From the sequence record MH675927.1: a stretch of DNA of 64,000 bases; one strand, written 5' to 3'. The notes under the pieces were generated by a model. It was not told where the DNA came from and ran no database searches. It worked only from the letters and a program-made list of their open reading frames with translations. Positions 12,652-59,824 of this stretch are shown here, piece after piece. Source of the DNA: Escherichia phage vB_vPM_PD114. Position numbers and translations under genes: made by a program. How positions within the stretch are numbered: position 1 is the first letter of the stretch; every line of letters begins with the position of its first letter.

Positions 12652-13464
12652 TTATTTAGTCAAATGATCTTCTATCATTTTTATGAAAGCAGGATTGCTA
12701 AAAGCATCTGCGGCCTTTTCTCGATAAACAAAGACTCCTCTATCTTCGTAAAGAAGAGTTTCTTCGTAATTAATTCCTGGGTTAACAACAATCATTTTTG
12801 TACCCATACTAAGTGCAGGGAATAATTCCCAATTAAAATTGATAACTTGGTTTGAACATCCCACTACAACAACCAAATCTTGCATGGTCAAAGTATCAAA
12901 AATATGATACATATCCGTGTAAAGTGGAGCAGCTTCCCCAAAGAAAATTACATTAGGTTTTACATAATGGTAGTCATCTACATCTATAGCTTGATAACCA
13001 ACATCTTTTACAATTGTAGGTTGTCCAGCTTTTCTTTGAAAAGTAATTTCAGGAAGAAAACCGTGCACATGTAGCACTTCTTCCCTATCTACTCCTGCTC
13101 GTTCAAGGAGGTCATCCACGTTAGTAGTAATGTTAATAATTCGTTCTGGGCCATATTTTTTGAACCATTCTCCAATCTGAAGATGTGCTGGATTCGGGTC
13201 AACTTTCTCTAATTCCACGCGACGTTTATTGTAAAAGTCGTGAGTTTTACGGTAGAGGTTATATCCTTCTGCATCTAAACCACCCATAGCATCAAGAACA
13301 CCTTGTTCTTGCTGATAACCGTCACGGAAGTTGAAAATGTCACAGACCTCAAAAAGATCATAAGAAGACCATAACGCCTTCCCTGAAGAAGTATCTGTTC
13401 TAAAAGCTGAGATACCGCTATCCACAGATAGTCCTGCACCACTGACAAAAATTACTCTTCGCAT
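12652..13464 (-). CDS. SIR2-like (sirtuin fold) NAD-binding protein
   Basis: GAGLSVDSGISAFR glycine-rich NAD loop near N-terminus, VHG and VIFFGE motifs as in sirtuins; no Zn-ribbon Cys pairs; SD aagagga. Confidence 0.6.
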   Translation of the reverse strand: MRRVIFVSGAGLSVDSGISAFRTDTSSGKALWSSYDLFEVCDIFNFRDGYQQEQGVLDAMGGLDAEGYNLYRKTHDFYNKRRVELEKVDPNPAHLQIGEWFKKYGPERIINITTNVDDLLERAGVDREEVLHVHGFLPEITFQRKAGQPTIVKDVGYQAIDVDDYHYVKPNVIFFGEAAPLYTDMYHIFDTLTMQDLVVVVGCSNQVINFNWELFPALSMGTKMIVVNPGINYEETLLYEDRGVFVYREKAADAFSNPAFIKMIEDHLTK

Positions 13465-51498: not shown

Positions 51499-51511
51499 TT
51501 AAGGAAACAGT

Positions 51512-51622
51512 ATGTCTACAGAAATTATTTTTGGCTTATCTGTTTTTATTGCTATTGTATCTTTTGTATGCGGTTATACACTAGGTTACAGATCAAGAAA
51601 AAATATTGTAAAAACTAGTTGA
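51512..51622 (+). CDS. small hydrophobic peptide (36 aa)
   Basis: SD taaggaaacag before ATG; hydrophobic. Confidence 0.35.
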   Translation: MSTEIIFGLSVFIAIVSFVCGYTLGYRSRKNIVKTS

Positions 51623-51648
51623 CAACATAGCTAGTTATTTGCTAAGAT
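51619..51648 (+). promoter_or_regulatory. sigma70-like promoter (TTGACA-N18-TAAGAT)
   Basis: upstream of 51679 gene. Confidence 0.45.
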
Positions 51649-51678
51649 AAGCACAAGTTAAACAAAAAGGAGAAAACT

Positions 51679-51945
51679 ATGACAGAACGTACTTATGGTA
51701 AAGAATTGATTGAGAAGCACGTATTGATTGATAATAAAGGTGGAGCAATCTTTATTTTTGAACCTGAATCAGTTCTTACTGAAAACGAAAATGGTAGCGT
51801 TAGCCTTAAAACAGAAAGTTTGGTAATTGACTTCCTTGCTCTTCTGGATGAAATGGGGCTTCCGCACGAAGAAGAAGCAGCTATTGCTTTGATTACAGTT
51901 CTTCTGGAGAAACGCGAAGCTGGTGAAATGACCCAGTATGCTTAA
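51679..51945 (+). CDS. hypothetical protein
   Basis: track ORF; SD aaaggagaaaac. Confidence 0.55.
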   Translation: MTERTYGKELIEKHVLIDNKGGAIFIFEPESVLTENENGSVSLKTESLVIDFLALLDEMGLPHEEEAAIALITVLLEKREAGEMTQYA

Positions 51946-51952
51946 TATTCAA

Positions 51953-52028
51953 GGTTCCATAGCTCACTGACGAGAGCGCACACCTCATAAGTGTCGAGGG
52001 CAGGGATTGTAACCCTGGGGAACCACCA
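51953..52028 (+). tRNA. tRNA with CAT anticodon (Met or Ile-lysidine), atypical T-loop
   Basis: acceptor GGTTCC/GGAACC, D-arm GCTC-actgacga-GAGC, anticodon loop CTCATAA, 3' ACCA; T-loop ATTGTAA non-canonical, 7:66 mismatch. Confidence 0.45.
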
Positions 52029-52059
52029 TTTAAAAGGAGATGCTATGCATCTCCTATAT

Positions 52060-52145
52060 GCAAGTGTGGTGGAATTGGTGATACACATTGTGCTTAAAAC
52101 GCAACGCTTAAATGATTGAGGGTTCGAATCCCTCCACTTGCACCA
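52060..52145 (+). tRNA. tRNA-Leu (TAA)
   Basis: 7-bp acceptor GCAAGTG/CACTTGC, anticodon loop CTTAAAA, long variable arm, T-arm GAGGGTTCGAATCCCTC, encoded CCA. Confidence 0.7.
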
Positions 52146-52147
52146 AC

Positions 52148-52253
52148 GCCTAGTAGGGTATTTGGTAATTCCGAGGCCATCAAAGCCTGAAAAATATGTT
52201 AGACCGCTTTGTCTAACTAAATACGAAATATGGTTCGATTCCATAACTAGGCT
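52148..52253 (+). ncRNA. atypical 106-nt tRNA-like RNA (possible TCA anticodon hairpin, long extra arm)
   Basis: perfect 7-bp acceptor GCCTAGT/ACTAGGC and canonical T-arm TATGGTTCGATTCCATA but about 30 nt too long; 7-bp extra hairpin gttagac-cgcttt-gtctaac; fold not computed. Confidence 0.3.
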
Positions 52254-52285
52254 TCAATTTAAATAATAATTTTAGTAAAAATATC

Positions 52286-52314
52286 TTGACATTCACTTAG
52301 TTTTTTGTTATAGT
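52286..52314 (+). promoter_or_regulatory. sigma70-like promoter (TTGACA-N17-TATAGT)
   Basis: about 12 nt upstream of tRNA-like gene at 52326. Confidence 0.5.
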
Positions 52315-52325
52315 TACTGTGAAAA

Positions 52326-52407
52326 CGGGGTGTATCTCACCTGACTTCTAATCAGGCGTTAACCGAGTAATTGGAGTATGCAGGTTCGAATCCTGTCACC
52401 CCGACCA
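52326..52407 (+). ncRNA. atypical tRNA-like RNA with TCT (Arg-type) anticodon hairpin, no canonical D-arm
   Basis: 7/7 acceptor CGGGGTG/CACCCCG, T-arm GCAGGTTCGAATCCTGT, ACCA end; anticodon-like hairpin cctga-CTTCTAA-tcagg begins at position 15. Confidence 0.35.
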
Positions 52408-52425
52408 AAAAGTTTTAAAAACTAC

Positions 52426-52454
52426 TTGACAAGCAAGATAGTTTTATGTTAGAT
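52426..52454 (+). promoter_or_regulatory. sigma70-like promoter (TTGACA-N17-TTAGAT)
   Basis: upstream of tRNA-Ser at 52471. Confidence 0.5.
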
Positions 52455-52470
52455 TTAAAGTATGATAACG

Positions 52471-52560
52471 GGAAGGTAGGGCGCAGCGGTGCGCAACCAG
52501 GTTTGAACCCTGGCCCATTGTAGCGATACGGTGATGGTTCGACTCCATTATCTTCCTCCA
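52471..52560 (+). tRNA. tRNA-Ser (TGA)
   Basis: acceptor GGAAGGT/ATCTTCC (one GU), D-stem GCGC, anticodon stem CCAGG/CCTGG loop TTTGAAC, long variable arm, T-arm, CCA; anchored to ORF track at 52531. Confidence 0.65.
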
Positions 52561-52578
52561 AATTCAACTAGGAGCTTT

Positions 52579-52731
52579 ATGAATTATAAAACTATTGGAC
52601 AGGTTGTTACCGGAGTTAAGATTGTAGATAATAAAGTTGTTTATGAGTATTCTAATCTTCAACAATCTGAAGATGGTAAAAATATTCGTATGGTAAAAGC
52701 AGAACAAAAAGATTCCGGTTGTTTTGAATAA
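52579..52731 (+). CDS. hypothetical protein (50 aa)
   Basis: track ORF 52531..52731 overlaps tRNA-Ser; trimmed to ATG after taggagc. Confidence 0.45.
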   Translation: MNYKTIGQVVTGVKIVDNKVVYEYSNLQQSEDGKNIRMVKAEQKDSGCFE

Positions 52732-52739
52732 TTAAGAAC

Positions 52740-52825
52740 GGTAGATTGGTGAAATGGTAGCCACAACAGTTTGCTAAACTGTCGTCGGAAACGGCGTGTA
52801 GGTTCAAGTCCTACATCTACCGCCA
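52740..52825 (+). tRNA. tRNA-Ser (GCT)
   Basis: perfect acceptor GGTAGAT/ATCTACC, anticodon stem ACAGT/ACTGT loop TTGCTAA, long variable arm, T-arm GTAGGTTCAAGTCCTAC, CCA. Confidence 0.7.
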
Positions 52826-52845
52826 AATTTATGCGAGGAGGATGT

Positions 52846-53226
52846 ATGCCAAGCAATGATTATATGCGGGAATACATGAAAACTCGGTGGCAGAAGCGAA
52901 GAGCTTCCGCAATCCTCCAGCTTGGAGGTAAATGTGTTAATTGTGGGTCTGTAGATGACTTGGAATTTGATCATAAAGATTCAAGCGAGAAGAAGTTTTA
53001 TATTAGTCGAATGAGTTCATGCTCTGAGGCTAAATGGCAGGAAGAACTTGCCAAATGTCAACTTTTGTGCCATGACTGTCACATGAAGAAGACAAGAATA
53101 TCCCAAGACATGGGAAACAGAATTAGAACAACGGTGTGTGTTTGCGGGGCAGTATTTTATAGTACAAAGGCTTATGCTGGACATACACGGTGGTGTAAAG
53201 AGTATGCATCGTTAGCCAAGCGGTAA
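52846..53226 (+). CDS. HNH endonuclease (free-standing, inside tRNA cluster)
   Basis: CVNCGS..DHKD..CHDCH HNH motifs; track ORF 52771..53226 begins inside tRNA-Ser, trimmed to ATG after gaggagg; 3' end overlaps tRNA-Lys by about 21 nt. Confidence 0.65.
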   Translation: MPSNDYMREYMKTRWQKRRASAILQLGGKCVNCGSVDDLEFDHKDSSEKKFYISRMSSCSEAKWQEELAKCQLLCHDCHMKKTRISQDMGNRIRTTVCVCGAVFYSTKAYAGHTRWCKEYASLAKR

Positions 53227-53280
53227 GGCACTTGACTTTTAATCAAGGGAGCGAAGGTTCGAATCCTTCACGATGTACCA
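53206..53280 (+). tRNA. tRNA-Lys (TTT)
   Basis: acceptor GCATCGT/ACGATGT (G1-U72), anticodon stem CTTGA/TCAAG loop CTTTTAA, T-arm GAAGGTTCGAATCCTTC, CCA. Confidence 0.7.
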
Positions 53281-53285
53281 AACAC

Positions 53286-53372
53286 GTAGGTATCGCATAG
53301 CGGCAATTGCTGGAGACTGTAAATCTCCTGCCCTTCGGGGCTTCGTTGGTTCGAGTCCAACTACCTGCACCA
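53286..53372 (+). tRNA. tRNA-Tyr (GTA)
   Basis: acceptor GTAGGTA/TACCTGC, anticodon stem GGAGA/TCTCC loop CTGTAAA, long variable arm, T-arm, CCA. Confidence 0.7.
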
Positions 53373-53379
53373 AATTAAA

Positions 53380-53463
53380 GATGGATTGGCCTAGTGGTTG
53401 GGCGACGGACTGTTAATCCGTGAACGAAAGTTCTAGCAAGGTTCAAATCCTTGATCCATCGCC
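53380..53463 (+). tRNA. type II (long variable arm) tRNA with GTT anticodon (Asn-decoding)
   Basis: perfect acceptor GATGGAT/ATCCATC, anticodon stem ACGGA/TCCGT loop CTGTTAA, extra arm gaac-gaaa-gttc, T-arm CAAGGTTCAAATCCTTG, CCA. Confidence 0.5.
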
Positions 53464-53471
53464 AGAATTAT

Positions 53472-53548
53472 GGACTTGTAGAGTTAAGGTAAACCCTCAG
53501 TCGCAAAGAGGCTTCTGGAATTGCAGGTATCGAATCCTGCCGAGTCCA
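53472..53548 (+). ncRNA. degenerate tRNA-like element
   Basis: acceptor GGACTTG/CGAGTCC and 8-nt T-loop GCAGG-TATCGAAT-CCTGC but no canonical 5-7-5 anticodon arm; no CCA. Confidence 0.3.
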
Positions 53549-53554
53549 ATTATT

Positions 53555-53629
53555 GCTCCTATCGTATAACGGCTATTACGGTTGCCTTGTAAGCAACTTA
53601 TCAGGGTTCGAGTCCTTGTGGGAGCACCA
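53555..53629 (+). tRNA. tRNA-Thr (TGT)
   Basis: acceptor GCTCCTA/TGGGAGC, D-arm GTA..TAC, anticodon stem GTTGC/GCAAC loop CTTGTAA, T-arm, CCA. Confidence 0.7.
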
Positions 53630-53652
53630 ATTTTAACTCTAAAGGAGTGTAT

Positions 53653-53976
53653 GTGACAGAAAAAGAGTTAGAGAAATATTTTAATATCAATGTTTTCGAT
53701 GGTTTTGATGATATTGAAGATGTTGAAAGATATTATGAAGTAGAGTTAGATAAGGATAACATTGTAATTCTTTCTGCCACTTATGATTGTGCATATTATG
53801 AAGGTGAATCTCACGTTTATTTTTATGATATGAAAACATCTTTGTTTTATGAAGTACACGCATATCATTGTTCTTGTTATGGTTTAGAAGGTCAGTGGGA
53901 ACCTGAAGAAATAGGTGATTTGAGCTTTACGGTTGCATATCTAAACAGACGTGGTGCATCTACTATTTTAAAATAA
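53653..53976 (+). CDS. hypothetical protein
   Basis: track ORF 53647..53976; probable start at second GTG after aaaggag. Confidence 0.5.
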   Translation: MTEKELEKYFNINVFDGFDDIEDVERYYEVELDKDNIVILSATYDCAYYEGESHVYFYDMKTSLFYEVHAYHCSCYGLEGQWEPEEIGDLSFTVAYLNRRGASTILK

Positions 53977-53990
53977 ATATTAAAAGCCTC

Positions 53991-54020
53991 TTGACAAAGG
54001 GGCTAATAATATGTTAGAGT
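53991..54020 (+). promoter_or_regulatory. sigma70-like promoter (TTGACA-N17-TTAGAG)
   Basis: upstream of tRNA-Gly. Confidence 0.5.
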
Positions 54021-54031
54021 AATATTGTTAA

Positions 54032-54106
54032 GCGGGTATAGTGTTAATGGTAGCATATGAGGTTTCCACCCTCCAGGTGCAGGTTCAAGTCCTGTTACTC
54101 GCTCCA
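54032..54106 (+). tRNA. tRNA-Gly (TCC)
   Basis: acceptor GCGGGTA/TACTCGC (one GU), anticodon loop TTTCCAC, T-arm GCAGGTTCAAGTCCTGT, CCA. Confidence 0.7.
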
Positions 54107-54537
54107 AGATTATTTAAATGGAATCGCTAGAGAAAATTTCTCTTTTCGCTCATGGTTTTCTCCTTCAAACTCTAGCGGTTCTTTTTAAGTGATTTTTTAG
54201 TTTATTGGAGATTCACTGCCTTAGTGTGAGCTAAAATCGAGGAGCCATCGAACTGTCTGATTAATGATTTGCGAATCATTATAGTTTTAAGACCCCGGCA
54301 GTTTTATGGTGTACCTCTTGAATGTGAATGATGACGGGTTTATGGTTATCCTGGTCGTTAAATATCCAAAAACCTATGTTCCCCTTGAGGGCTTGCGCAG
54401 GCAATGCCAATAAGTCCTGCATTTTCATTTAAAAGAGAATTTATAATGGAAAAAGATGAACTTAAGTATGCTAAGCCTCTGGCTTCTGCTGCACGAAAAG
54501 CAGTTCGTCACTTTGTGGTAACACTGAAGTAATTTAT
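54107..54537 (+). other. structured noncoding spacer inside tRNA cluster (candidate small RNAs)
   Basis: 8-bp stem cgctagag/ctctagcg then U-tract (approx 54125-54190); hairpin taatgatt-tgcg-aatcatta (approx 54259-54278); gcagg..cctgc hairpin plus U-tract (approx 54393-54430); no convincing ORF. Confidence 0.35.
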
Positions 54538-54612
54538 TGGAGATTAGCCTAGTGGGAAGGCAACGGCCTTTGAAGTCGTGATGACTAGGTTCGATTCCTA
54601 GATCTCCAGCCA
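54538..54612 (+). tRNA. tRNA-Gln (TTG)
   Basis: perfect acceptor TGGAGAT/ATCTCCA, D-stem GCC/GGC, anticodon loop CTTTGAA, T-arm CTAGGTTCGATTCCTAG, CCA. Confidence 0.7.
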
Positions 54613-54619
54613 AGATTTA

Positions 54620-54695
54620 CAGTGCGTAGCGCAGTTGGTAGCGTGGGAGCCTTGGACGCTTCAGGTCGCAGGTTCGAGTCCTGCCGCACTGACCA
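54620..54695 (+). tRNA. tRNA-Pro (TGG)
   Basis: perfect acceptor CAGTGCG/CGCACTG, D-arm GCGC-AGTTGGTA-GCGT, anticodon loop CTTGGAC, T-arm GCAGGTTCGAGTCCTGC, CCA. Confidence 0.75.
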
Positions 54696-54700
54696 AATTT

Positions 54701-54775
54701 GCAGAGATAGCTGAGACGGATTAGTGCTACCCTGAAAAGGTAGAAAGGATGGATCGTTACCATCTCTCTGCACCA
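54701..54775 (+). tRNA. tRNA-Phe (GAA)
   Basis: perfect acceptor GCAGAGA/TCTCTGC, anticodon stem CTACC/GGTAG loop CTGAAAA, T-arm GATGGATCGTTACCATC, CCA. Confidence 0.7.
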
Positions 54776-54852
54776 AATAACACCATCCAAGGAGTAGACT
54801 TGGTTAACTGTCAATAGCACATTGAGGCTTCTTACAGTGGTGTACTTATTAT

Positions 54853-54937
54853 GGCTAAGTGGTGGAATGGTATACACGATACGCTTAGAACGTATTGCCC
54901 CAAGGGATTGTGAGTTCGAGTCTCACCTTAGCTACCA
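54853..54937 (+). tRNA. tRNA-Leu (TAG)
   Basis: acceptor GGCTAAG/CTTAGCT (G1-U72), anticodon stem ATACG/CGTAT loop CTTAGAA, long variable arm, T-arm GTGAGTTCGAGTCTCAC, CCA. Confidence 0.7.
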
Positions 54938-54952
54938 AATTATTACAGATTG

Positions 54953-55031
54953 CGCGGGATAGAGGAGTCTGGTCGTCCTCGCCAGTTTCATATGCTGGAG
55001 ATCATCGGTTCAAATCCGATTCCCGCCTCCA
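54953..55031 (+). tRNA. tRNA-Met (CAT), possible initiator type
   Basis: acceptor CGCGGGA/TCCCGCC with 1:72 mismatch, D-stem GAGG/CCTC, anticodon loop TTCATAT, T-arm ATCGGTTCAAATCCGAT, CCA. Confidence 0.55.
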
Positions 55032-55089
55032 CTAAATACCTCCCTTCTGGTGTAATGATTAAATTACATTGACACCTCAAGGAACTCAT

Positions 55090-55172
55090 AGCTGGGTAGA
55101 TTTAAAAGAGTATGGTACTCAATATGGCTCCAAACCATAGATCAAGGGGTTCGATTCCTCACCTTGCTGCCA
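55090..55172 (+). ncRNA. tRNA-Trp-like (CCA anticodon) with irregular 5' region
   Basis: anticodon arm TATGG-CTCCAAA-CCATA, D-like arm GAG-TATGGTA-CTC, T-loop TTCGATT, 3' CCTTGCT-G-CCA; only 6/7 acceptor candidate, separated from D-arm by about 11 nt. Confidence 0.35.
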
Positions 55173-55177
55173 ATTAT

Positions 55178-55253
55178 TGTGGTATCGTACAGATGGTTAG
55201 TACACTCGACCGATAATCGAGAAACAACGGTTCGACTCCGTTTACCACGACCA
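55178..55253 (+). tRNA. tRNA-Ile (GAT)
   Basis: 76 nt; acceptor TGTGGTA/TACCACG (U1-G72), D-stem GTAC, anticodon stem CTCGA/TCGAG loop CCGATAA, T-arm AACGGTTCGACTCCGTT, CCA. Confidence 0.6.
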
Positions 55254-55366
55254 AACTCCGTGCCAGCGGTGTCTTCGAAGAACAAGCCTAGTTCCTTCTG
55301 AGATGGAGGGGTGCGACTCCTTAACGCACAATTCTAATAAAGCATTTCAACTTAACAGTATTTATT

Positions 55367-55390
55367 AGCCTCCTTATTGGAGGCTTTTTG
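55367..55390 (+). terminator. rho-independent terminator closing the tRNA operon
   Basis: agcctcc-ttatt-ggaggct hairpin followed by TTTTTG. Confidence 0.6.
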
Positions 55391-55408
55391 CTATTTATTG
55401 AATAAAAC

Positions 55409-55437
55409 TTGACTTATTATTTTTTATATGTTATCCT
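55409..55437 (+). promoter_or_regulatory. sigma70-like promoter (TTGACT-N17-TATCCT)
   Basis: upstream of 55458 gene. Confidence 0.45.
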
Positions 55438-55457
55438 TAAGTAAGGAGGTGCATATT

Positions 55458-55748
55458 ATGCCTAAATTGAAAAGAGGTCGAGGTAGACCTACAGCCGAAA
55501 TGCAACAGATTTATGCTATGGATGCTGCACAGGCGCAAGTAAAAGAAATTTTTGCTGGTCGTTATTTAGATGCTATGCGTTACATTGCAGATCTTGTTGT
55601 AGATGAAAAGGCTTCTGCTAATATTAAGTTGACTGCTTCTAAGATCATCAAAGAACAAGTAGAAGAATGGCTGGAAGAACATTATGAATCTATGGAAGAA
55701 GAAGATATTCTTCCAGAAAATTCTCCCCCTCAAAAAATCGTTATCTAA
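55458..55748 (+). CDS. hypothetical protein with basic N-terminus (small terminase candidate)
   Basis: track ORF 55428..55748 trimmed to ATG after taaggagg; MPKLKRGRGRP basic start; function is a positional guess. Confidence 0.5.
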   Translation: MPKLKRGRGRPTAEMQQIYAMDAAQAQVKEIFAGRYLDAMRYIADLVVDEKASANIKLTASKIIKEQVEEWLEEHYESMEEEDILPENSPPQKIVI

Positions 55749-56770: not shown

Positions 56771-57999
56771 GTGGCAAGGAAACCTGTCAAACAATCTTTT
56801 GAAAATGTAGATATTGAAGTTAAAGCCCAACCTGGCAAACAAACACTAGCTATGGATCTTATGCCTGAAGTAATGATTTATGGTGGTGCGGCAGGTTGTG
56901 TTTCAGCAGAAACAGAATACTTAACAAGAGACGGTTGGAAACAAATAAGTGAATATGATGGTGAGGATATTTATCAATACAATCCAAGAAACAAACGTCT
57001 TGAATTAGTTACACCATCTTTTGTAGAATATGATGCTAAAGATAATCTGTATTGTATTACAAACGGAGTAGGTGTCTTCCAAGAATTAAGTATGGAACAT
57101 CGCTTTGTTTTCTACAAGAAGAAAAAATCCAAAAAACATTTTGAAATTCTTGTTGGGGATCTTATTGCACTACAGCAAGCAGGACACCCATTACGAGGAT
57201 ATATTGAAAATCCTTTTGGTAAACGTGTTCCGTTTAACATTCAAGGTAAACCTAGCACATATCTAAAAATTCATGAGGTAATGACAAGTGATGATAAGAA
57301 ATATTGCTTTGAAACTCCAAGCAGTTATGTCGTGTTTAGACGTGGCGATCACATCTTCGTTACTGGGAATAGCGGCAAAAGCCGTCTGCTACTTCTAAAA
57401 GCACTTAAATACGCATATAAAGATCCACTGTTTGGTGGTATTCTTTTCCGTAAAAATACAACAGCTTTACGTAAATCTGGTGGTTTGTTTACTGAAGCTA
57501 AAAAACTTTATCTACCATTAAAGCCTCACGTAAGAGAACAGGCTATGGAGATGGAGTTCAGAGCCACAAAAGGTGGCACACTTAAATTTGACCATCTTGA
57601 AAATGATAACGTAACTGCTGAAACTAACCATCAAGGTACACAGTATTCGATGGTAGGGTTTGACGAACTTACACATTTTACACAATATGAAATGCTGTAT
57701 CTGTTAGGGCGTATGCGTTCTGAATCAGAAACATCTTTTATGCTGTGTACTTGTAACCCTGATGCTGACAGTTGGGTGTTGAAATGGGTACTTCCTTATT
57801 TGGATGAAGCTGGTTATCCACGGGAAGATATGTGTGGCAAACAGCTATACTTTCTTATTGTGCAAGATGAACCAGTATTTGCTGAAACAGCAGAAGAGTT
57901 GAAAGAAAAGTATCCTGAAAACTGTTTTATGCAAAACCCAAACACAGGTGAAACAGTGGTTATTGAACCACAAACATTTGTGTTCATTGGTGGAACCAT
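56771..57999 (+). CDS. terL: terminase large subunit, exon 1 (ATPase domain, contains intein)
   Basis: Walker A split as GGAAG | intein | SGKS; track ORF runs to stop at 58009 but inferred 5' splice site follows T at 57999. Confidence 0.65.
56897..57370 (+). other. mini-intein (158 aa) inserted in TerL Walker A loop
   Basis: begins CVSAETEYLTRDG (intein block A-like), internal T..H block (ITNGVGVF..MEHRFV), ends ..DHIFVTGN followed by Ser; excision gives GGAAGSGKS. Confidence 0.65.
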
Positions 58000-58064
58000 T
58001 AATCAATAGTGGCTTTGTGCAGCGATGCACATCGAATAACTTTGTTAATTGCTGGGAAGTCTAT

Positions 58065-58093
58065 TGACAAATAGATAATCAGCAGCTATAATC
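58065..58093 (+). promoter_or_regulatory. sigma70-like promoter inside intron (TTGACA-N17-TATAAT)
   Basis: consensus hexamers about 30 nt upstream of homing endonuclease ATG. Confidence 0.55.
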
Positions 58094-58124
58094 ACTTCTC
58101 CAAAAATATTAGTAGGAGAGTAAA

Positions 58125-58805
58125 ATGAAAAACTTAGATTTCATCGGATACCCGCATTATTGCGCCACATACGATGGTCGTATTTTTAGTTTATACACCC
58201 AAAAATTCCTAAGCGAAAATAAGATGCTTGGAGATTACAAGGGAGTAACCATTTGTGAAAATGGTAACAGGATAGAAGAATTACAGCACAGGTTGATAGC
58301 AAAAGCATTTGTGCCTAACCCTGAAAATAAGCCTTTTGTTAATCACAAAGATGGCAACAAACTTAATAATTGTGCAGACAATCTTGAGTGGACAACAGAA
58401 CAAGAGAATACTCTTCACGCTATGTCCACAGGGTTAAGACGAACAGAAGTCATAAATGACTACAGACCTATTCCAGACACTGTTGCTGTGGAAATTTGCA
58501 AACTGTTAGAGCAAGGATCACGTAACAAAGATATCTGTCAGATGTATAATGTGGCACAATCTGTTGTTAGTGATATAAAAGCTGGCAGAACATATAAAGA
58601 CATTTCACAAGACTTTAACTTTAGAAAAATACCCTCTTCCAACAGAATAAGTGAAGATAAAGTCTTAGGGATTTGTGAAAAGCTGCAAGAAAATATTCTA
58701 TCAATAAATAAAATAGCTAAAAAATACGGCGTAAGTTTTAATGTAGTTAAGAGTATTAAAGATAGGAAAACCTATACGTACTTATCTAATAACTACAATT
58801 GGTGA
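58125..58805 (+). CDS. HNH homing endonuclease (intron-encoded)
   Basis: HNH block HRLIAKAFVPNPENKPFVNHKDGNKLNNCADNLEW; SD taggagag; located inside the terL intron. Confidence 0.75.
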   Translation: MKNLDFIGYPHYCATYDGRIFSLYTQKFLSENKMLGDYKGVTICENGNRIEELQHRLIAKAFVPNPENKPFVNHKDGNKLNNCADNLEWTTEQENTLHAMSTGLRRTEVINDYRPIPDTVAVEICKLLEQGSRNKDICQMYNVAQSVVSDIKAGRTYKDISQDFNFRKIPSSNRISEDKVLGICEKLQENILSINKIAKKYGVSFNVVKSIKDRKTYTYLSNNYNW

Positions 58806-58992
58806 TGTAGTTCAACGACTATCCCGAAAGGGAGTAGGGCAGAAGCAAATGCTGCTCGAAAAGCAAAGCATCTCTTAGGAGATGATGATATAGTCTATTC
58901 TGCACAGTGATGTGCAGCAGTTCATAAGAGAACGTGGAGTAGAGTTGCGACTACTCCAGAATAAAAAGATTTGATAACCCTGAACTAATAAG

Positions 58993-59824
58993 ACTTAACC
59001 CTAAATACTTAGCTTCTTTGAAGGCTCAAACCGCCGTTAAGAGAGCACAGCTTTTAGATGGTTGTTGGTTTGCTCGTGCGCAAGAAGAGAGTTTCTTTAA
59101 CAGAGAATGGTTACACGTTATCAAGTTTAAAGATTTACCAAACAATCTTAAATATATGCGAGCGTGGGATAAAGCAGTATCTGTTCCAACAGAATCTTAT
59201 CGTTATCCTGACTACACAACATCTGTTAAAATGGCTAAAGACTCTGATGGAAATTATTACATTTTTGGTGATTATGATTATGATGCTCACGATGAAGGTA
59301 GTAAAATTTTTGGTAGATTCAGAAGACTACCAGGTGATCGAGATAATTTAATTCTAAACCAATGTAAGATTGATGGAGATGAAGTTACAGTTGTATTGCC
59401 AAAAGATCCTTCTGGTGCTGGTTTGATTGAATATACAGAATCAGCTAAAAAACTAATTGCTGAAGGGTTTGTTGTTAAACCAGACGCTATGCCTGGTAAC
59501 AAGAAAAAGTTACAACGCTTTATGCCATTTAGTAGTGCTTGTCAAAATGGTTTTGTTTATATTGTAGAAGAATCTTTCCCTAATAAAGAAACTCTTGATC
59601 ATTTCTATAAAGAGATGGAGTCGTTTAATGGAGAAAGATCTACAGCAACATTAAAAGATGATATTCCAGATGCTGCTGCATCTTGCTTTAATACTTTGTC
59701 AAAAGAACAGATGTTTAAAGCAGTAGCAATACCTTCTGCAACAAATGCATTAACAGGGTATGGTAAGATGGGTGGAAGATCAAGAAACTCTTTATCTTCT
59801 CCATATAGTATCAGAGGAAGATAA
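58993..59824 (+). CDS. terL: terminase large subunit, exon 2 (nuclease domain)
   Basis: open frame from 58994 continuous with track ORF 59018..59824 (alternative start); acidic DDIPDAAAS motif; joins exon 1 in frame via junction codon ATA. Confidence 0.55.

What the first reader, a model, noticed from the sequence alone, without database searches (positions are those of the whole stretch)
51953..55253. tRNA cluster of about 19 genes driven by repeated near-consensus sigma70 promoters
I could fold about 15 canonical tRNAs by hand (Leu-TAA, Ser-TGA, Ser-GCT, Lys, Tyr, Thr, Gly, Gln, Pro, Phe, Leu-TAG, Ile, two CAT-anticodon tRNAs, and a GTT-anticodon tRNA with a long arm) plus four tRNA-like genes that do not fold canonically. 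Most encode CCA. The cluster is fed by several TTGACA-N17-TAnnnT promoters and ends at a strong terminator near 55367. The same promoter consensus recurs before the NAD+ pair, the intron endonuclease and the head genes, so these regions probably use unmodified host RNA polymerase.
Basis: seen in the sequence. Interest (0 to 1): 0.4.

Follow-up and report, generated by a model that had tools for sequence, protein, structure and literature searches.

The report
Phage tRNA cluster with odd-shaped tRNAs
This is the known tRNA gene cluster of a phi92-like E. coli phage, but two of its genes, for arginine and tryptophan, belong to conserved phage families of tRNAs with unusual folds that standard finders and GenBank annotation almost always miss.

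Summary
Window 51953-55253 (+) is the tRNA cluster of a Justusliebigvirus (phi92-like myovirus, 99% identical to vB_vPM_PD06).

- ARAGORN CCA-encoding tRNAs, and Rfam adds a 16th.
- Four extended -10 sigma70-type promoters (51619, 52286, 52426, 53991) and a terminator (55367) frame the cluster. The motif occurs 11 times in the window against 0.57 expected.

The cluster is already annotated in relatives. What is not ordinary:

- **Element B (52326-52407)** has a UCU (Arg) anticodon but no D hairpin. A 3-bp helix encloses the anticodon arm, and a conserved GG-containing 12-nt strand follows. In 43 distinct homologues 98.5% of cells pair and 17 of 20 pairs covary. It lies in 253 GenBank phages, almost never annotated, and no B-bearing locus has a normal-length canonical tRNA-Arg(UCU). 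AGA is the codon most enriched over E. coli (about 4.8x).
- **Element D (55090-55172)** is an 8/4 tRNA-Trp(CCA) with an 8-10-nt connector, and it also covaries.
- **tRNA-Asn** carries a covarying extra arm.
- **Elements A and C** have no usable anticodon.

A 98%-identical, circularly permuted T4 rIII/30.9 fragment sits inside the cluster.

The parts
51619..51648 (+). Promoter P1: TTGACA-N18-TAAGAT with TG extended -10. Upstream of ORF 51679-51945, tRNA-Met/Ile2, tRNA-Leu and element A.
51953..52028 (+). tRNA with CAT anticodon (Met or Ile2). CCA encoded. Atypical elbow: the D loop has no GG and the T loop is AUUGUAA. Rfam's tRNA model does not pass it; phi92 annotates it as 'hypothetical tRNA'.
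52060..52145 (+). tRNA-Leu(TAA), class II, CCA encoded.
52147..52256 (+). Element A, tRNA-like. It has a 7-bp acceptor stem, a weak D arm, a 4-bp stem with loop CAUCAAA (UCA in the anticodon position but A at position 33), a 7-bp extra hairpin, and a perfect T arm with UUCGAUU. No CCA. Present in muut and EC.P2, absent from phi92. No distant homologue found.
52286..52314 (+). Promoter P2: TTGACA-N17-TATAGT with TG. This is the best match in the region (11 of 12). It ends 11 nt before element B.
52326..52407 (+). Element B, a non-canonical tRNA-Arg(UCU).
- Acceptor stem: 52326-52332 with 52397-52403.
- 3-bp helix: 52336-52338 with 52365-52367, enclosing the anticodon arm.
- Anticodon arm: 52340-52356, anticodon TCT at 52347-52349.
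- Conserved strand: UAAUUGGAGUAU at 52368-52379.
- T arm: 52380-52396.
- 3' end: A73 + CCA.
52426..52455 (+). Promoter P3: TTGACA-N18-TAGATT with TG. It ends 15 nt before tRNA-Ser(TGA).
52471..52560 (+). tRNA-Ser(TGA), class II, CCA encoded. Called by ARAGORN only. Rfam gives only tRNA-Sec at 35 bits, below threshold. Flagged as pseudo in phi92 and KP2025.
52579..52731 (+). Small ORF (50 aa), phrog_22441, unknown function.
52740..52825 (+). tRNA-Ser(GCT).
52846..53226 (+). HNH homing endonuclease gene (126 aa). Absent from phi92 and muut. Its last 21 nt overlap the 5' end of tRNA-Lys.
53206..53280 (+). tRNA-Lys(TTT).
53286..53372 (+). tRNA-Tyr(GTA), class II.
53380..53464 (+). tRNA-Asn(GTT) with an extra arm (4-bp stem + GAAA loop), G73, CCA encoded. 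The extra arm covaries in four lineages.
53471..53549 (+). Element C, tRNA-like. The acceptor stem and T arm (8-nt loop UAUCGAAU) covary between lineages. The middle part is not conserved and has no anticodon loop. No CCA.
53555..53629 (+). tRNA-Thr(TGT).
53647..53976 (+). ORF (109 aa), phrog_8792, unknown function.
53991..54020 (+). Promoter P4: TTGACA-N18-TAGAGT with TG. It ends 11 nt before tRNA-Gly.
54032..54106 (+). tRNA-Gly(TCC).
54107..54197 (+). Long hairpin (GGAATCGCTAGAG...CTCTAGCGGTTC) followed by a T run. Folding z-score -5.1. 84% conserved in Klebsiella phage KP2025. Possibly a terminator or a processing site.
54198..54545 (+). DNA 98% identical to T4-like phages, circularly permuted: first the rIII/30.9 intergenic region and the 30.9 start, then the rIII 3' end. 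It is flanked by the direct repeat TTTATTGGAGATT (54201-54213 and 54533-54545). It carries ORF 54446-54532, which joins the 30.9 start codon to the last 27 codons of rIII.
54538..54612 (+). tRNA-Gln(TTG).
54620..54695 (+). tRNA-Pro(TGG).
54701..54775 (+). tRNA-Phe(GAA), with T loop AUCGUUA. Flagged as pseudo in phi92.
54776..54852 (+). Spacer F. A structured three-way fold is predicted. Part of it is 84% similar to a spacer in Pectobacterium phage POP15. Unresolved.
54853..54937 (+). tRNA-Leu(TAG), class II.
54953..55031 (+). tRNA with CAT anticodon (79 nt). It has a C1xC72 mismatch and an initiator-like acceptor and T arm, but no run of three G-C pairs in the anticodon stem.
55090..55172 (+). 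Element D, a non-canonical tRNA-Trp(CCA).
- 8-bp acceptor stem: 55090-55097 with 55161-55168, with A1-U72.
- 10-nt connector.
- 4-bp D stem with a 5-nt loop containing UGG.
- Anticodon loop CUCCAAA.
- 4-bp T stem.
- 3' end: G73 + CCA.
55178..55253 (+). tRNA-Ile(GAT).
55254..55366 (+). Trailer E. Conserved in Phapecoctavirus (91%) and KP2025 (87%). It contains a T-arm-like hairpin (GGAG-GGGUGCGA-CUCC) that changes to AGAG...CUCU in KP2025. Unresolved.
55367..55392 (+). Intrinsic terminator: AGCCTCC-TTATT-GGAGGCT followed by TTTTTGC.

Best explanation
**What it is.** This is the tRNA gene cluster of a phi92-like (Justusliebigvirus) E. coli myovirus.

**How it is expressed.** Four sigma70-type promoters with extended -10 elements transcribe it as short units. 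These are presumably read by host RNA polymerase, and presumably cut by host RNase P and 3' processing enzymes; both steps are inferred. An intrinsic terminator at 55367 ends the last unit.

**What it encodes.**
- 17 tRNAs with usable anticodons: 15 cloverleaf tRNAs plus two structurally non-canonical ones.
- Two tRNA-like elements (A and C) that keep the acceptor/T-arm half but have no credible anticodon loop.

**What it does.** The tRNAs mostly read A/U-ending codons that this 37% G+C phage uses more than E. coli does. The most likely job is therefore to keep phage translation supplied, through codon supplementation and/or independence from host tRNAs that are depleted or cleaved during infection.

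**The two non-canonical genes.** B and D most likely are the phage's working tRNA-Arg(UCU) and tRNA-Trp(CCA).
- In B the D hairpin is missing. The 5' D-stem strand (CUC) pairs with GAG on the 3' side of the anticodon arm. This gives one long arm with the anticodon at its tip. A conserved 12-nt strand, UAAUUGGAGUAU, follows. I infer that it takes over the role of the D loop: a GG to contact the T loop and an A in the place of A20, the ArgRS identity base.
- D has an 8-bp acceptor stem plus a 4-bp T stem, which keeps the usual 12-bp branch. It also has an 8-10-nt connector before a small D arm.

**Shown:** the genes, the promoter motifs, the terminator, covariation, distribution and codon bias.

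**Inferred:** transcription by host polymerase, processing, aminoacylation, use on the ribosome, and the tertiary roles of the conserved strands.
For: **Identity of the cluster**
- 99.1% identical to vB_vPM_PD06, with the same tRNA order as annotated in phi92 and muut.
- 15 ARAGORN tRNAs plus one more from Rfam.

**Transcription signals**
- Promoter motif: 11 observed against 0.57 expected.
- Terminator at 55367.

**Element B**
- Rfam tRNA score 40 bits against a threshold of 29.
- In 43 distinct homologues, 98.5% of cells pair, 17 of 20 pairs show changes on both sides, and 0 of 500 shuffles reach the observed values. Slid controls pair at 33-46%.
- The 3-bp helix occurs as CUC/GAG, CAC/GUG, CAG/CUG, CAU/AUG, CGC/GCG and CUU/AAG, always complementary.
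- The anticodon loop is CUUCUAA in nearly all; one is UUCCUAA (CCU, also Arg) and a few are CUUCUAC.
- RNAalifold finds the acceptor, anticodon and T helices on its own.
- None of the 56 loci carrying a B-type gene has a normal-length canonical tRNA-Arg(UCU), although many hold 22-28 tRNAs including Arg(ACG).
- It sits where related phages have a canonical tRNA-Arg(UCU) with the same acceptor stem.
- Full-length copies occur in 253 GenBank phage records, against 1 hit in 185,579 bacterial and archaeal species genomes.
- AGA is used at 10.0 per 1000 codons in the window. E. coli uses about 2.1 (my recollection). This is the largest ratio of any codon checked.

**Element D**
- In 10 sequences from 5 phage groups, 92.8% of cells pair, 15 of 21 pairs have double changes, and 0 of 500 shuffles reach the observed values.
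- CCA anticodon, G73 and G2-C71 or equivalent are kept, and A1-U72 is kept in 8 of 10.
- No D-bearing locus has a canonical tRNA-Trp.

**tRNA-Asn**
- The extra arm covaries in four lineages.
Against: - There are no expression, processing or aminoacylation data for any of these genes.
- The two searches that collected most B homologues fixed parts of the conserved linker. The invariance of those columns is therefore partly by construction. The BLAST-found members and the scan anchored on the 5' side show that the linker is conserved, but not invariant.
- ARAGORN rejects B in both standard and mitochondrial modes.
- Thermodynamic folding does not predict B's 3-bp helix.
- D scores below Rfam's tRNA threshold (22.9 against 29). 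Its single-sequence fold is no better than shuffles (z = 0.18).
- The E. coli codon frequencies are from memory.
- Codon supplementation and evasion of tRNA-cleaving defences cannot be separated with sequence alone.
Confidence: 0.8

Rival explanations
1. The tRNAs serve mainly as an anti-defence measure. They replace host tRNAs cut by anticodon nucleases (PrrC, PARIS AriB, retron Eco7 PtuAB, colicin-like toxins). The odd architectures (B without a D hairpin, the Asn extra arm, D's 8/4 branch, the altered elbows in Met-CAT and Phe) would be adaptations that make the phage copies poor substrates for such nucleases.
For: - The cluster holds Lys(UUU), Tyr(GUA), Asn(GUU) and Arg(UCU), isoacceptors that known tRNA-targeting systems attack. 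The principle that phage tRNAs escape such nucleases is set out in PMC10264068 and PMC12409363 (found; I saw only their abstracts).
- B and D are essentially virus-specific and structurally far from their host counterparts.
Against: - The anticodon loops of Lys, Tyr and Asn are the ordinary CUUUUAA, CUGUAAA and CUGUUAA. That is not the loop-mutation signature described for escape.
- No nuclease is known that would be blocked by loss of the D hairpin.
- The codon bias (AGA 4.8x, ACA 3.4x, CUA 2.6x, AUA 2.3x) already explains the choice of anticodons.
- The two explanations are not exclusive.
Confidence: 0.3
2. The four non-canonical elements (A-D) are decaying tRNA pseudogenes with no function, kept only because they lie between working genes.
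For: - A is absent from phi92 and many relatives and has no distant homologue.
- A and C lack CCA and a proper anticodon loop.
- phi92's annotators flagged some cluster members as pseudo.
Against: - For B and D this is excluded as far as sequence can show. Compensatory changes occur in every helix across 43 and 10 distinct sequences from unrelated phage groups.
- Their anticodon loops are invariant.
- B has its own near-consensus promoter.
- Both fill isoacceptor slots that are otherwise empty.
- Even C shows compensatory changes in its acceptor and T stems.
Confidence: 0.15
3. B and D are not decoders but tRNA mimics. They could be decoys or processing signals that recruit RNase P, the CCA-adding enzyme, modification enzymes or a phage protein, as viral tRNA-like structures do. 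Elements C and A may work this way.
For: - C keeps a covarying acceptor/T-arm half while its middle part is free to vary, with a 9-nt indel. That is what a processing or recognition signal would need.
- B's linker strands are far more conserved than any ordinary tRNA loop. This could reflect binding of a dedicated protein.
Against: - For B and D the anticodon loop is the most conserved feature, including U33 and A37.
- The only anticodon change seen in B stays within arginine (UCU to CCU).
- The discriminator bases match ArgRS and TrpRS rules (established identity rules, from my own knowledge).
- CCA is encoded.
- Both are the only genes for their codon in tRNA-rich phage genomes.
Confidence: 0.15

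Closest known systems
tRNA gene clusters of large virulent coliphages (phi92 itself, T4, T5, Felix O1, rV5/PVP-SE1 relatives)
   Same: - A compact same-strand array of CCA-encoding tRNAs, mostly for A/U-ending codons.
- Small ORFs and an HNH homing endonuclease are interspersed.
- Sigma70-like promoters drive it.
- The gene order is identical to the annotated clusters of phi92 and muut.
   Different: Nothing about the cluster as such differs; this window is a member. Compared with phi92 it has an extra HNH gene (52846-53226) and element A.
[quoted passage not shown]
   Same: - There is no D hairpin between the acceptor stem and the anticodon stem.
- The anticodon-bearing arm is extended.
- The anticodon UCU reads AGR codons.
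   Different: - B keeps a full 5-bp T arm with UUCGAAU.
- B keeps a 3-bp helix made of the D-stem 5' strand and a strand 3' of the anticodon arm.
- B has a highly conserved 8-nt and 12-nt pair of linkers.
- It is encoded by phages of bacteria.
- ARAGORN's mitochondrial mode does not recognise it.
8/4 tRNAs (Mukai et al. 2017, PMC5389517)
   Same: Element D has an 8-bp acceptor stem and a 4-bp T stem, 12 bp in all. The paper reports 8/4 tRNAs in phage tRNA clusters.
   Different: - The published phage cases are tRNA-Ser and tRNA-His.
- D has a Trp anticodon, a short variable loop and an 8-10-nt connector between the acceptor and D stems.
- I found no description of such a tRNA.
Class II tRNAs (bacterial Leu, Ser, Tyr)
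   Same: The tRNA-Asn(GUU) has a base-paired extra arm in the variable region.
   Different: - The anticodon and G73 are those of asparagine.
- The arm is a short 4-bp stem capped by a GAAA loop.
- Canonical 76-nt tRNA-Asn genes exist in related phages POP15 and SarahDanielle.
Viral and cellular tRNA-like structures used as processing or recognition signals (plant virus TLS, mascRNA-type elements)
   Same: Elements C and A keep an acceptor/T-arm half without a decoding anticodon loop.
   Different: They lie inside a tRNA operon rather than at an RNA 3' end. No function has been tested. The resemblance is only a lead.

Membership tests
tRNA (Rfam RF00005 / cloverleaf) - the 15 ARAGORN genes | Cloverleaf with a 7-bp acceptor stem, D arm, 5-bp anticodon stem with a 7-nt loop, and T arm; detected by tRNA finders. 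| tested here: met
   - 15 of 15 are called by ARAGORN.
- 13 of 15 pass Rfam's gathering score.
- 51953 and 52471 are called by ARAGORN only.
tRNA (Rfam RF00005) - element B | Score at or above the curated gathering threshold (29 bits). | tested here: met
   40 bits over model positions 1-71.
Canonical cloverleaf tRNA - element B | D hairpin (stem 10-13:22-25 closing the D loop) between the acceptor and anticodon stems. | tested here: not met
   - Only 7 nt (UAUCUCA) lie between the two stems.
- CUC pairs instead with GAG 3' of the anticodon arm.
- ARAGORN rejects it.
tRNA-Arg - element B | Arginine anticodon, with C35 and U36 or G36. | tested here: met
   UCU in all members of A9 except one, which has CCU.
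tRNA-Arg - element B | Charged by ArgRS (A20 and discriminator A/G73 as identity elements in E. coli; established knowledge). | not testable with these tools
   The discriminator is mostly A or G, and GGA is present in the 12-nt strand. The equivalence to A20 is my inference.
8/4 tRNAs (Mukai 2017) - element D | 12-bp acceptor branch made of an 8-bp acceptor stem and a 4-bp T stem. | tested here: met
   The helices at columns 6-13:78-85 and 63-66:74-77 of A6 are 91% and 100% paired and covary.
tRNA (Rfam RF00005) - element D | Score at or above the gathering threshold. | tested here: not met
   22.9 bits against 29. ARAGORN calls it only at a relaxed threshold.
tRNA-Trp - element D | CCA anticodon, G73 and A1-U72 (E. 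coli TrpRS identity; established knowledge). | tested here: met
   - The CCA anticodon is invariant.
- G precedes CCA in all aligned sequences that encode it.
- A-U is at the first pair in 8 of 10.
- Charging was not tested.
Functional tRNA - elements A and C | 7-nt anticodon loop with U33 on a 5-bp stem, conserved among homologues. | tested here: not met
   - In C, the middle part differs by a 9-nt indel between lineages and has no such loop.
- In A, the loop is CAUCAAA with A33 on a 4-bp stem.
Sigma70 promoters (extended -10 class) | TTGACA, a 17±1 spacer and TAnnnT with an upstream TG, occurring above chance. | tested here: met
   11 matches against 0.57 expected. Activity was not tested.
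Justusliebigvirus (phi92-like phages) | Near-identical DNA and gene order. | tested here: met
   97-99% identity over 77-89% of the 3.5-kb query to phi92, muut, PD06 and others.

The most novel reading that the evidence does not exclude
Element B represents a structural class of working tRNA that I could not find described. It is a phage-specific tRNA-Arg(UCU/CCU) whose anticodon arm is nested inside what remains of the D stem, with a single-stranded D-loop mimic placed after it. It is used by hundreds of phages of enterobacteria, Streptomyces and uncultured hosts as their only AGA decoder. It would be charged by host ArgRS and accepted by the ribosome despite lacking a D hairpin. Element D would be a second such class, an 8/4 tRNA-Trp with a long connector.
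Probability: 0.45. Interest if true: 0.75.

Novelty: new variant of a known kind. Interest (0 to 1): 0.5.

Why it matters
The cluster as such is ordinary and already annotated. It only confirms that phi92-like phages carry their own tRNAs under host-type promoters.

The non-canonical genes matter for three reasons.

- **Annotation.** Standard annotation misses them. B is unannotated, "tRNA-OTHER" or mis-typed in nearly all of the 45 sampled records out of 253 GenBank phage records. Phage tRNA repertoires, and codon-usage arguments built on them, are therefore systematically incomplete. AGA, the codon most over-used by this phage, looks uncovered when it probably is not.
- **tRNA biology.** If B and D are charged and used, they show that bacterial ArgRS, TrpRS, EF-Tu, RNase P and the ribosome accept architectures so far known mainly from mitochondria or from a few 8/4 species. 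That is of direct interest for tRNA identity rules and for engineering orthogonal tRNAs.
- **Phage-host conflict.** Their restriction to viruses raises the testable idea that phages reshape tRNA bodies, not only anticodon loops, under pressure from tRNA-targeting host defences.

Tried and rejected
- **Rfam at a permissive E-value over 51500-55500.** Nothing besides tRNA-clan hits. The RyhB and CrcZ hits are weak matches to the terminator hairpin and were rejected.
- **ARAGORN with introns and in mitochondrial mode.** It calls A as Asn with an 18-nt intron and several reverse-strand tRNAs at low thresholds. I rejected these as artefacts. It does not find B.
- **Alternative pairings for B.** The hairpin CCGA-GUAA-UUGG in the RNAfold minimum-energy structure is not kept in homologues; VpaE1, 121Q and BoomerJR break it. 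Pairing of CUC with the second GAG (in UGGAGU) is contradicted by the variants, in which only the first GAG changes.
- A wasted collection scan: I mis-counted the spacing in the pattern.
- **The scan GTATCTCA-N5-CTTCTA.** It returned mostly chance or coding matches. Only those with complementary stems and a T arm were used.
- **Distant homologues of A, C, E and F.** None beyond the subfamily for A and C. E is shared with Phapecoctavirus and KP2025, and F partly with POP15. I could not assign structures to E and F.
- **A as a selenocysteine or opal-suppressor tRNA (UCA in the loop, very long extra arm).** Considered and not supported: A33, a 4-bp stem, no CCA, no hit to the Rfam tRNA-Sec model, and patchy presence.
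- **Pfam on the small ORFs.** No hits.
- **Literature searches.** They found no description of a B-type tRNA. This is absence from the searched library, not proof that it is new.

Full report
**1. Where the window comes from**

The 3.5-kb stretch 51900-55450 is 99.1% identical to Escherichia phage vB_vPM_PD06. It is 97-98% identical to phi92, muut and other members of Justusliebigvirus (Stephanstirmvirinae), which are 145-150-kb myoviruses of E. coli. In phi92 and muut the same tRNA genes are annotated in the same order. They lie between a nicotinamide/nicotinate phosphoribosyltransferase gene and the large terminase gene. The cluster as such is therefore already known.

**2. Check of the observation**

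All 15 encode CCA.
- Rfam's tRNA model passes 14 at its gathering score. It misses 51953 (CAT) and 52471 (Ser-TGA) but adds 52326-52404 at 40 bits.
- With relaxed thresholds ARAGORN also calls 55095-55172 (Trp-CCA), 53471-53549 and 52148-52253.

I call them A (52147-52256), B (52326-52407), C (53471-53549) and D (55090-55172).

Promoters and terminator:

- The pattern TTGACA-N16-18-TANNNT occurs 21 times in the window against 4.75 expected.
- The more specific TTGAC-N14-16-TGYTANNNT occurs 11 times against 0.57 expected, with no shuffle reaching 11.
- Five of those 11 lie at 51619, 52286, 52426, 53991 and 55409.
- The sequence shows an A-tract just upstream of each -35 hexamer and a TG before each -10 hexamer.
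- Three promoters end 11-16 nt before a tRNA 5' end (B, Ser-TGA, Gly), so the leaders would be only a few bases long.
- A terminator-like hairpin with a T run is at 55367-55385.

**3. Other contents of the cluster**

- **Small ORFs of unknown function.** 51679-51945, 52579-52731 and 53647-53976 have PHROG families but no Pfam hit.
- **An HNH homing endonuclease gene.** It lies at 52846-53226 (phrog_4234, E = 2.9e-25). It is absent from phi92 and muut, and its last 21 nt overlap tRNA-Lys.
- **A fragment of T4 DNA.** The stretch 54198-54545 is 98% identical to T4-like phages but circularly permuted.
  - Window 54198-54454 equals the rIII stop codon region, the rIII/30.9 intergenic region and the start of gene 30.9.
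  - Window 54448-54545 equals the last ~85 nt of rIII.
  - The piece is flanked by the direct repeat TTTATTGGAGATT. The second copy is the 5' end of tRNA-Gln.
  - It carries a 28-codon ORF in which the 30.9 start codon is fused in frame to the last 27 codons of rIII.
  - The simplest origin (my inference) is that a ~330-bp T4 fragment circularised and then integrated by a single crossover at the short homology.

**4. Element B**

*Layout* (read from the sequence):

| Part | Sequence or position |
|---|---|
| Acceptor stem | CGGGGUG / CACCCCG |
| Linker in place of the D arm | 7 nt, UAUCUCA |
| Anticodon arm | CCUGA-CUUCUAA-UCAGG (anticodon UCU) |
| 23-nt segment | CGUUAACCGAGUAAUUGGAGUAU |
| T arm | GCAGG-UUCGAAU-CCUGU |
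| 3' end | A73, CCA |

*Distribution.*

- BLAST found full-length homologues at 80-87% identity in unrelated phages: Felixounavirus, the jumbo phage 121Q, Proteus phage Mydo, Klebsiella phages and Streptomyces phages.
- In all, 253 GenBank phage records hold a full-length copy. In the 45 records sampled from these it is nearly always unannotated, labelled "tRNA-OTHER", or mis-typed as Leu or Val.
- Pattern scans of IMG/VR added more copies.
- A scan of 185,579 bacterial and archaeal species genomes gave one hit, on a metagenome-assembled contig.

*Structure.*

- On 43 distinct sequences (alignment A9), a model with four helices pairs 98.5% of cells. Seventeen of 20 pairs show changes on both sides. 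No shuffle of 500 reaches the observed values, and slid controls pair at 33-46%.
- RNAalifold independently recovers the acceptor, anticodon and T helices.
- The fourth helix is only 3 bp: 52336-52338 with 52365-52367. It occurs in six different complementary versions: CUC/GAG, CAC/GUG, CAG/CUG, CAU/AUG, CGC/GCG and CUU/AAG.
- So the 5' strand of what would be the D stem pairs with a strand on the 3' side of the anticodon arm. The anticodon arm is nested inside this helix.

*The 12-nt strand.* UAAUUGGAGUAU follows the helix. It resembles a tRNA-Arg D loop, with a GG and a following A. I suggest it replaces the D loop functionally. This rests on my knowledge of tRNA-Arg sequences and ArgRS identity rules, not on a test.

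*Caveat.* The scans fixed parts of the linkers, so their invariance in A5 and A9 is partly by construction. The BLAST-found members and the scan anchored on the 5' side show variants (CAUUAA..., a shorter AGCCGAGUAAGUGGAUCAAU, and a longer form). The conservation is real but not absolute.

*Evidence that B decodes.*

- The anticodon loop is the most constant part. The only anticodon variant is CCU, which is also arginine.
- Most copies encode CCA and some do not, as is usual for tRNA genes.
- Among 56 loci with a B-type gene, none has a normal-length canonical tRNA-Arg(UCU), although many hold 22-28 tRNAs including Arg(ACG).
- In Salmonella phage SalP219 a canonical tRNA-Arg(UCU) with the same acceptor stem sits at the position that B occupies in the related phage Mydo.
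- In 55 ORFs of this window AGA is used at 10.0 per 1000 codons, about 4.8 times the E. coli value as I recall it. This is the highest ratio of the codons checked. Next come ACA (3.4x), CUA (2.6x) and AUA (2.3x), all of which have a tRNA in the cluster.
- B has the best promoter match in the region directly upstream.

**5. Element D**

Alignment of ten sequences supports the following structure. The sequences come from phi92-like phages, Klebsiella phage KP2025, Hafnia phage SarahDanielle, Pectobacterium phage POP15, Salmonella phage SalP219, Proteus phage Mydo and three IMG/VR contigs.

- An 8-bp acceptor stem with a persistent Y-U mismatch at position 4 and a G-U pair at position 5.
- An 8-10-nt A/U-rich connector.
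- A 4-bp D stem with a small loop containing UGG.
- A 5-bp anticodon stem with the loop CUCCAAA.
- A 6-nt variable loop.
- A 4-bp T stem, then G73 and CCA.

In this model 92.8% of cells pair, 15 of 21 pairs have double changes, and 0 of 500 shuffles reach the observed values.

None of the loci with a D-type gene has a canonical tRNA-Trp, including SalP219, where ARAGORN finds 22 tRNAs.

The 8/4 branch is known from phage tRNA-Ser and tRNA-His (PMC5389517). I found no description of a Trp version with a long connector.

**6. Other unusual members**

- **tRNA-Asn(GUU).** It has an extra arm of 4 bp capped by GAAA. The arm reads GAAC/GUUC, GUUC/GAAC, GAGA/UCUC and GAGU/ACUC in four lineages, so it is selected.
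- **The first CAT tRNA (51953).** It lacks GG in the D loop and has the T loop AUUGUAA.
- **tRNA-Phe.** Its T loop is AUCGUUA.
- **The second CAT tRNA.** It has a C1xC72 mismatch and an initiator-like acceptor and T arm, but no G-C triplet in the anticodon stem.
- **Which CAT tRNA reads AUA, if either, could not be decided.**
- **Element C.** It keeps an acceptor stem and T arm that change in a compensatory way between the window/Phapecoctavirus version and the phi92/muut version. Its middle part differs by a 9-nt indel and has no anticodon loop.
- **Element A.** It has a good acceptor stem and T arm, a very long extra hairpin and UCA in a poor anticodon loop. It has no CCA, is missing from phi92, and has no distant homologue.
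- **Spacers E, F and the hairpin after tRNA-Gly.** They are conserved beyond the genus but remain unassigned.

**7. Interpretation**

The best-supported reading is an ordinary phage tRNA operon set, read from host-type promoters, that supplies decoders for codons the AT-rich phage over-uses. Two of its decoders have non-canonical bodies.

- A role in escaping tRNA-cleaving host defences is compatible with this and cannot be separated from codon supplementation by sequence.
- For B and D, covariation excludes the pseudogene explanation.
- For B and D, anticodon conservation and slot-filling make the decoy explanation unlikely.
- For A and C, both explanations remain open.

**8. Novelty**

The cluster is already known. 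The B-type and D-type architectures are, as far as my searches reach, undescribed:

- seven full-text searches found nothing;
- a 2020 review of non-canonical tRNAs mentions no phage or virus.

Both architectures are nearly always unannotated. I therefore file the finding as a new variant of a known kind. I cannot rule out a description in a paper outside the searched library.

Noticed in passing
window 54198-54545: About 340 bp are 98% identical to T4-like phages but circularly permuted: the rIII/30.9 intergenic region and 30.9 start come first, then the rIII 3' end. The piece is flanked by the direct repeat TTTATTGGAGATT, whose second copy is the 5' end of tRNA-Gln. It encodes a 28-aa peptide, the 30.9 start codon fused to the C-terminal 27 residues of RIII. 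This looks like integration of a circularised T4 fragment. It is present in phi92 and muut, but only a 49-nt, 82% match was found in Phapecoctavirus.
   Followed up: partly
window 56771-59824: The large terminase gene is split.
- The N-terminal ORF 56771-58009 has an intein-like insert in the Walker A motif (GGAAG|CVSAE...FVTGN|SGKS).
- Next comes a 226-aa HNH-type endonuclease ORF (58125-58805) with its own TTGACA-N17-TATAAT site at 58064.
- The C-terminal part follows at 59018-59824.

In muut the terminase is one 2085-nt gene. Rfam found no group I intron at its gathering score.
   Followed up: no
window 52846-53226: HNH homing endonuclease gene inserted between tRNA-Ser(GCT) and tRNA-Lys. 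It is absent from phi92 and muut, and its stop codon lies 21 nt inside tRNA-Lys.
   Followed up: partly
window 53380-53464; L005:3311-3396; L011:892-973; L006:4845-4926: tRNA-Asn(GUU) with a covarying 4-bp extra arm capped by a GAAA loop. It is shared by Stephanstirmvirinae, KP2025 and SalP219. POP15 and SarahDanielle have ordinary 76-nt tRNA-Asn genes.
   Followed up: partly
L006:4698-4784 (Salmonella phage SalP219): An 87-nt tRNA-Lys(UUU) with an insertion of about 10 nt in the D-loop region. This is another odd phage tRNA.
   Followed up: no
L041:12999-13080 and 13332-13429 (IMG/VR contig): A B-type tRNA with a CCU anticodon lies next to a 98-nt ARAGORN call for tRNA-Arg(tct). L133 likewise has a 96-nt Arg(tct) call. 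There may be further long variants of phage tRNA-Arg.
   Followed up: no
search hits H11-H15, H94, H153-154 (MG0656xx 'Campylobacter phage' records, ~146 kb): Several GenBank records named as Campylobacter jejuni phages are 97-98% identical to this E. coli phi92-like cluster. This suggests mislabelled hosts or contaminant genomes.
   Followed up: no
window 54107-54197: A long hairpin directly after tRNA-Gly, followed by a T run. Folding z-score -5.1. 84% conserved in Klebsiella phage KP2025. It may be an internal terminator or a processing site.
   Followed up: partly
L004:1410-1566 (Shigella phage ESh30) versus L003: Some T4-like phages carry an extra insertion of about 155 bp inside the rIII/30.9 intergenic region, so this region is itself variable among T4 relatives.
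   Followed up: no
upstream of B-type genes in L007, L042, L018, L023 (output): Many B-type genes in other phages have a -10-like hexamer (GATAAT, TATAAT) a few bases upstream of the mature 5' end. As in this window, this hints that B-type tRNAs are often transcribed as their own units.
   Followed up: no
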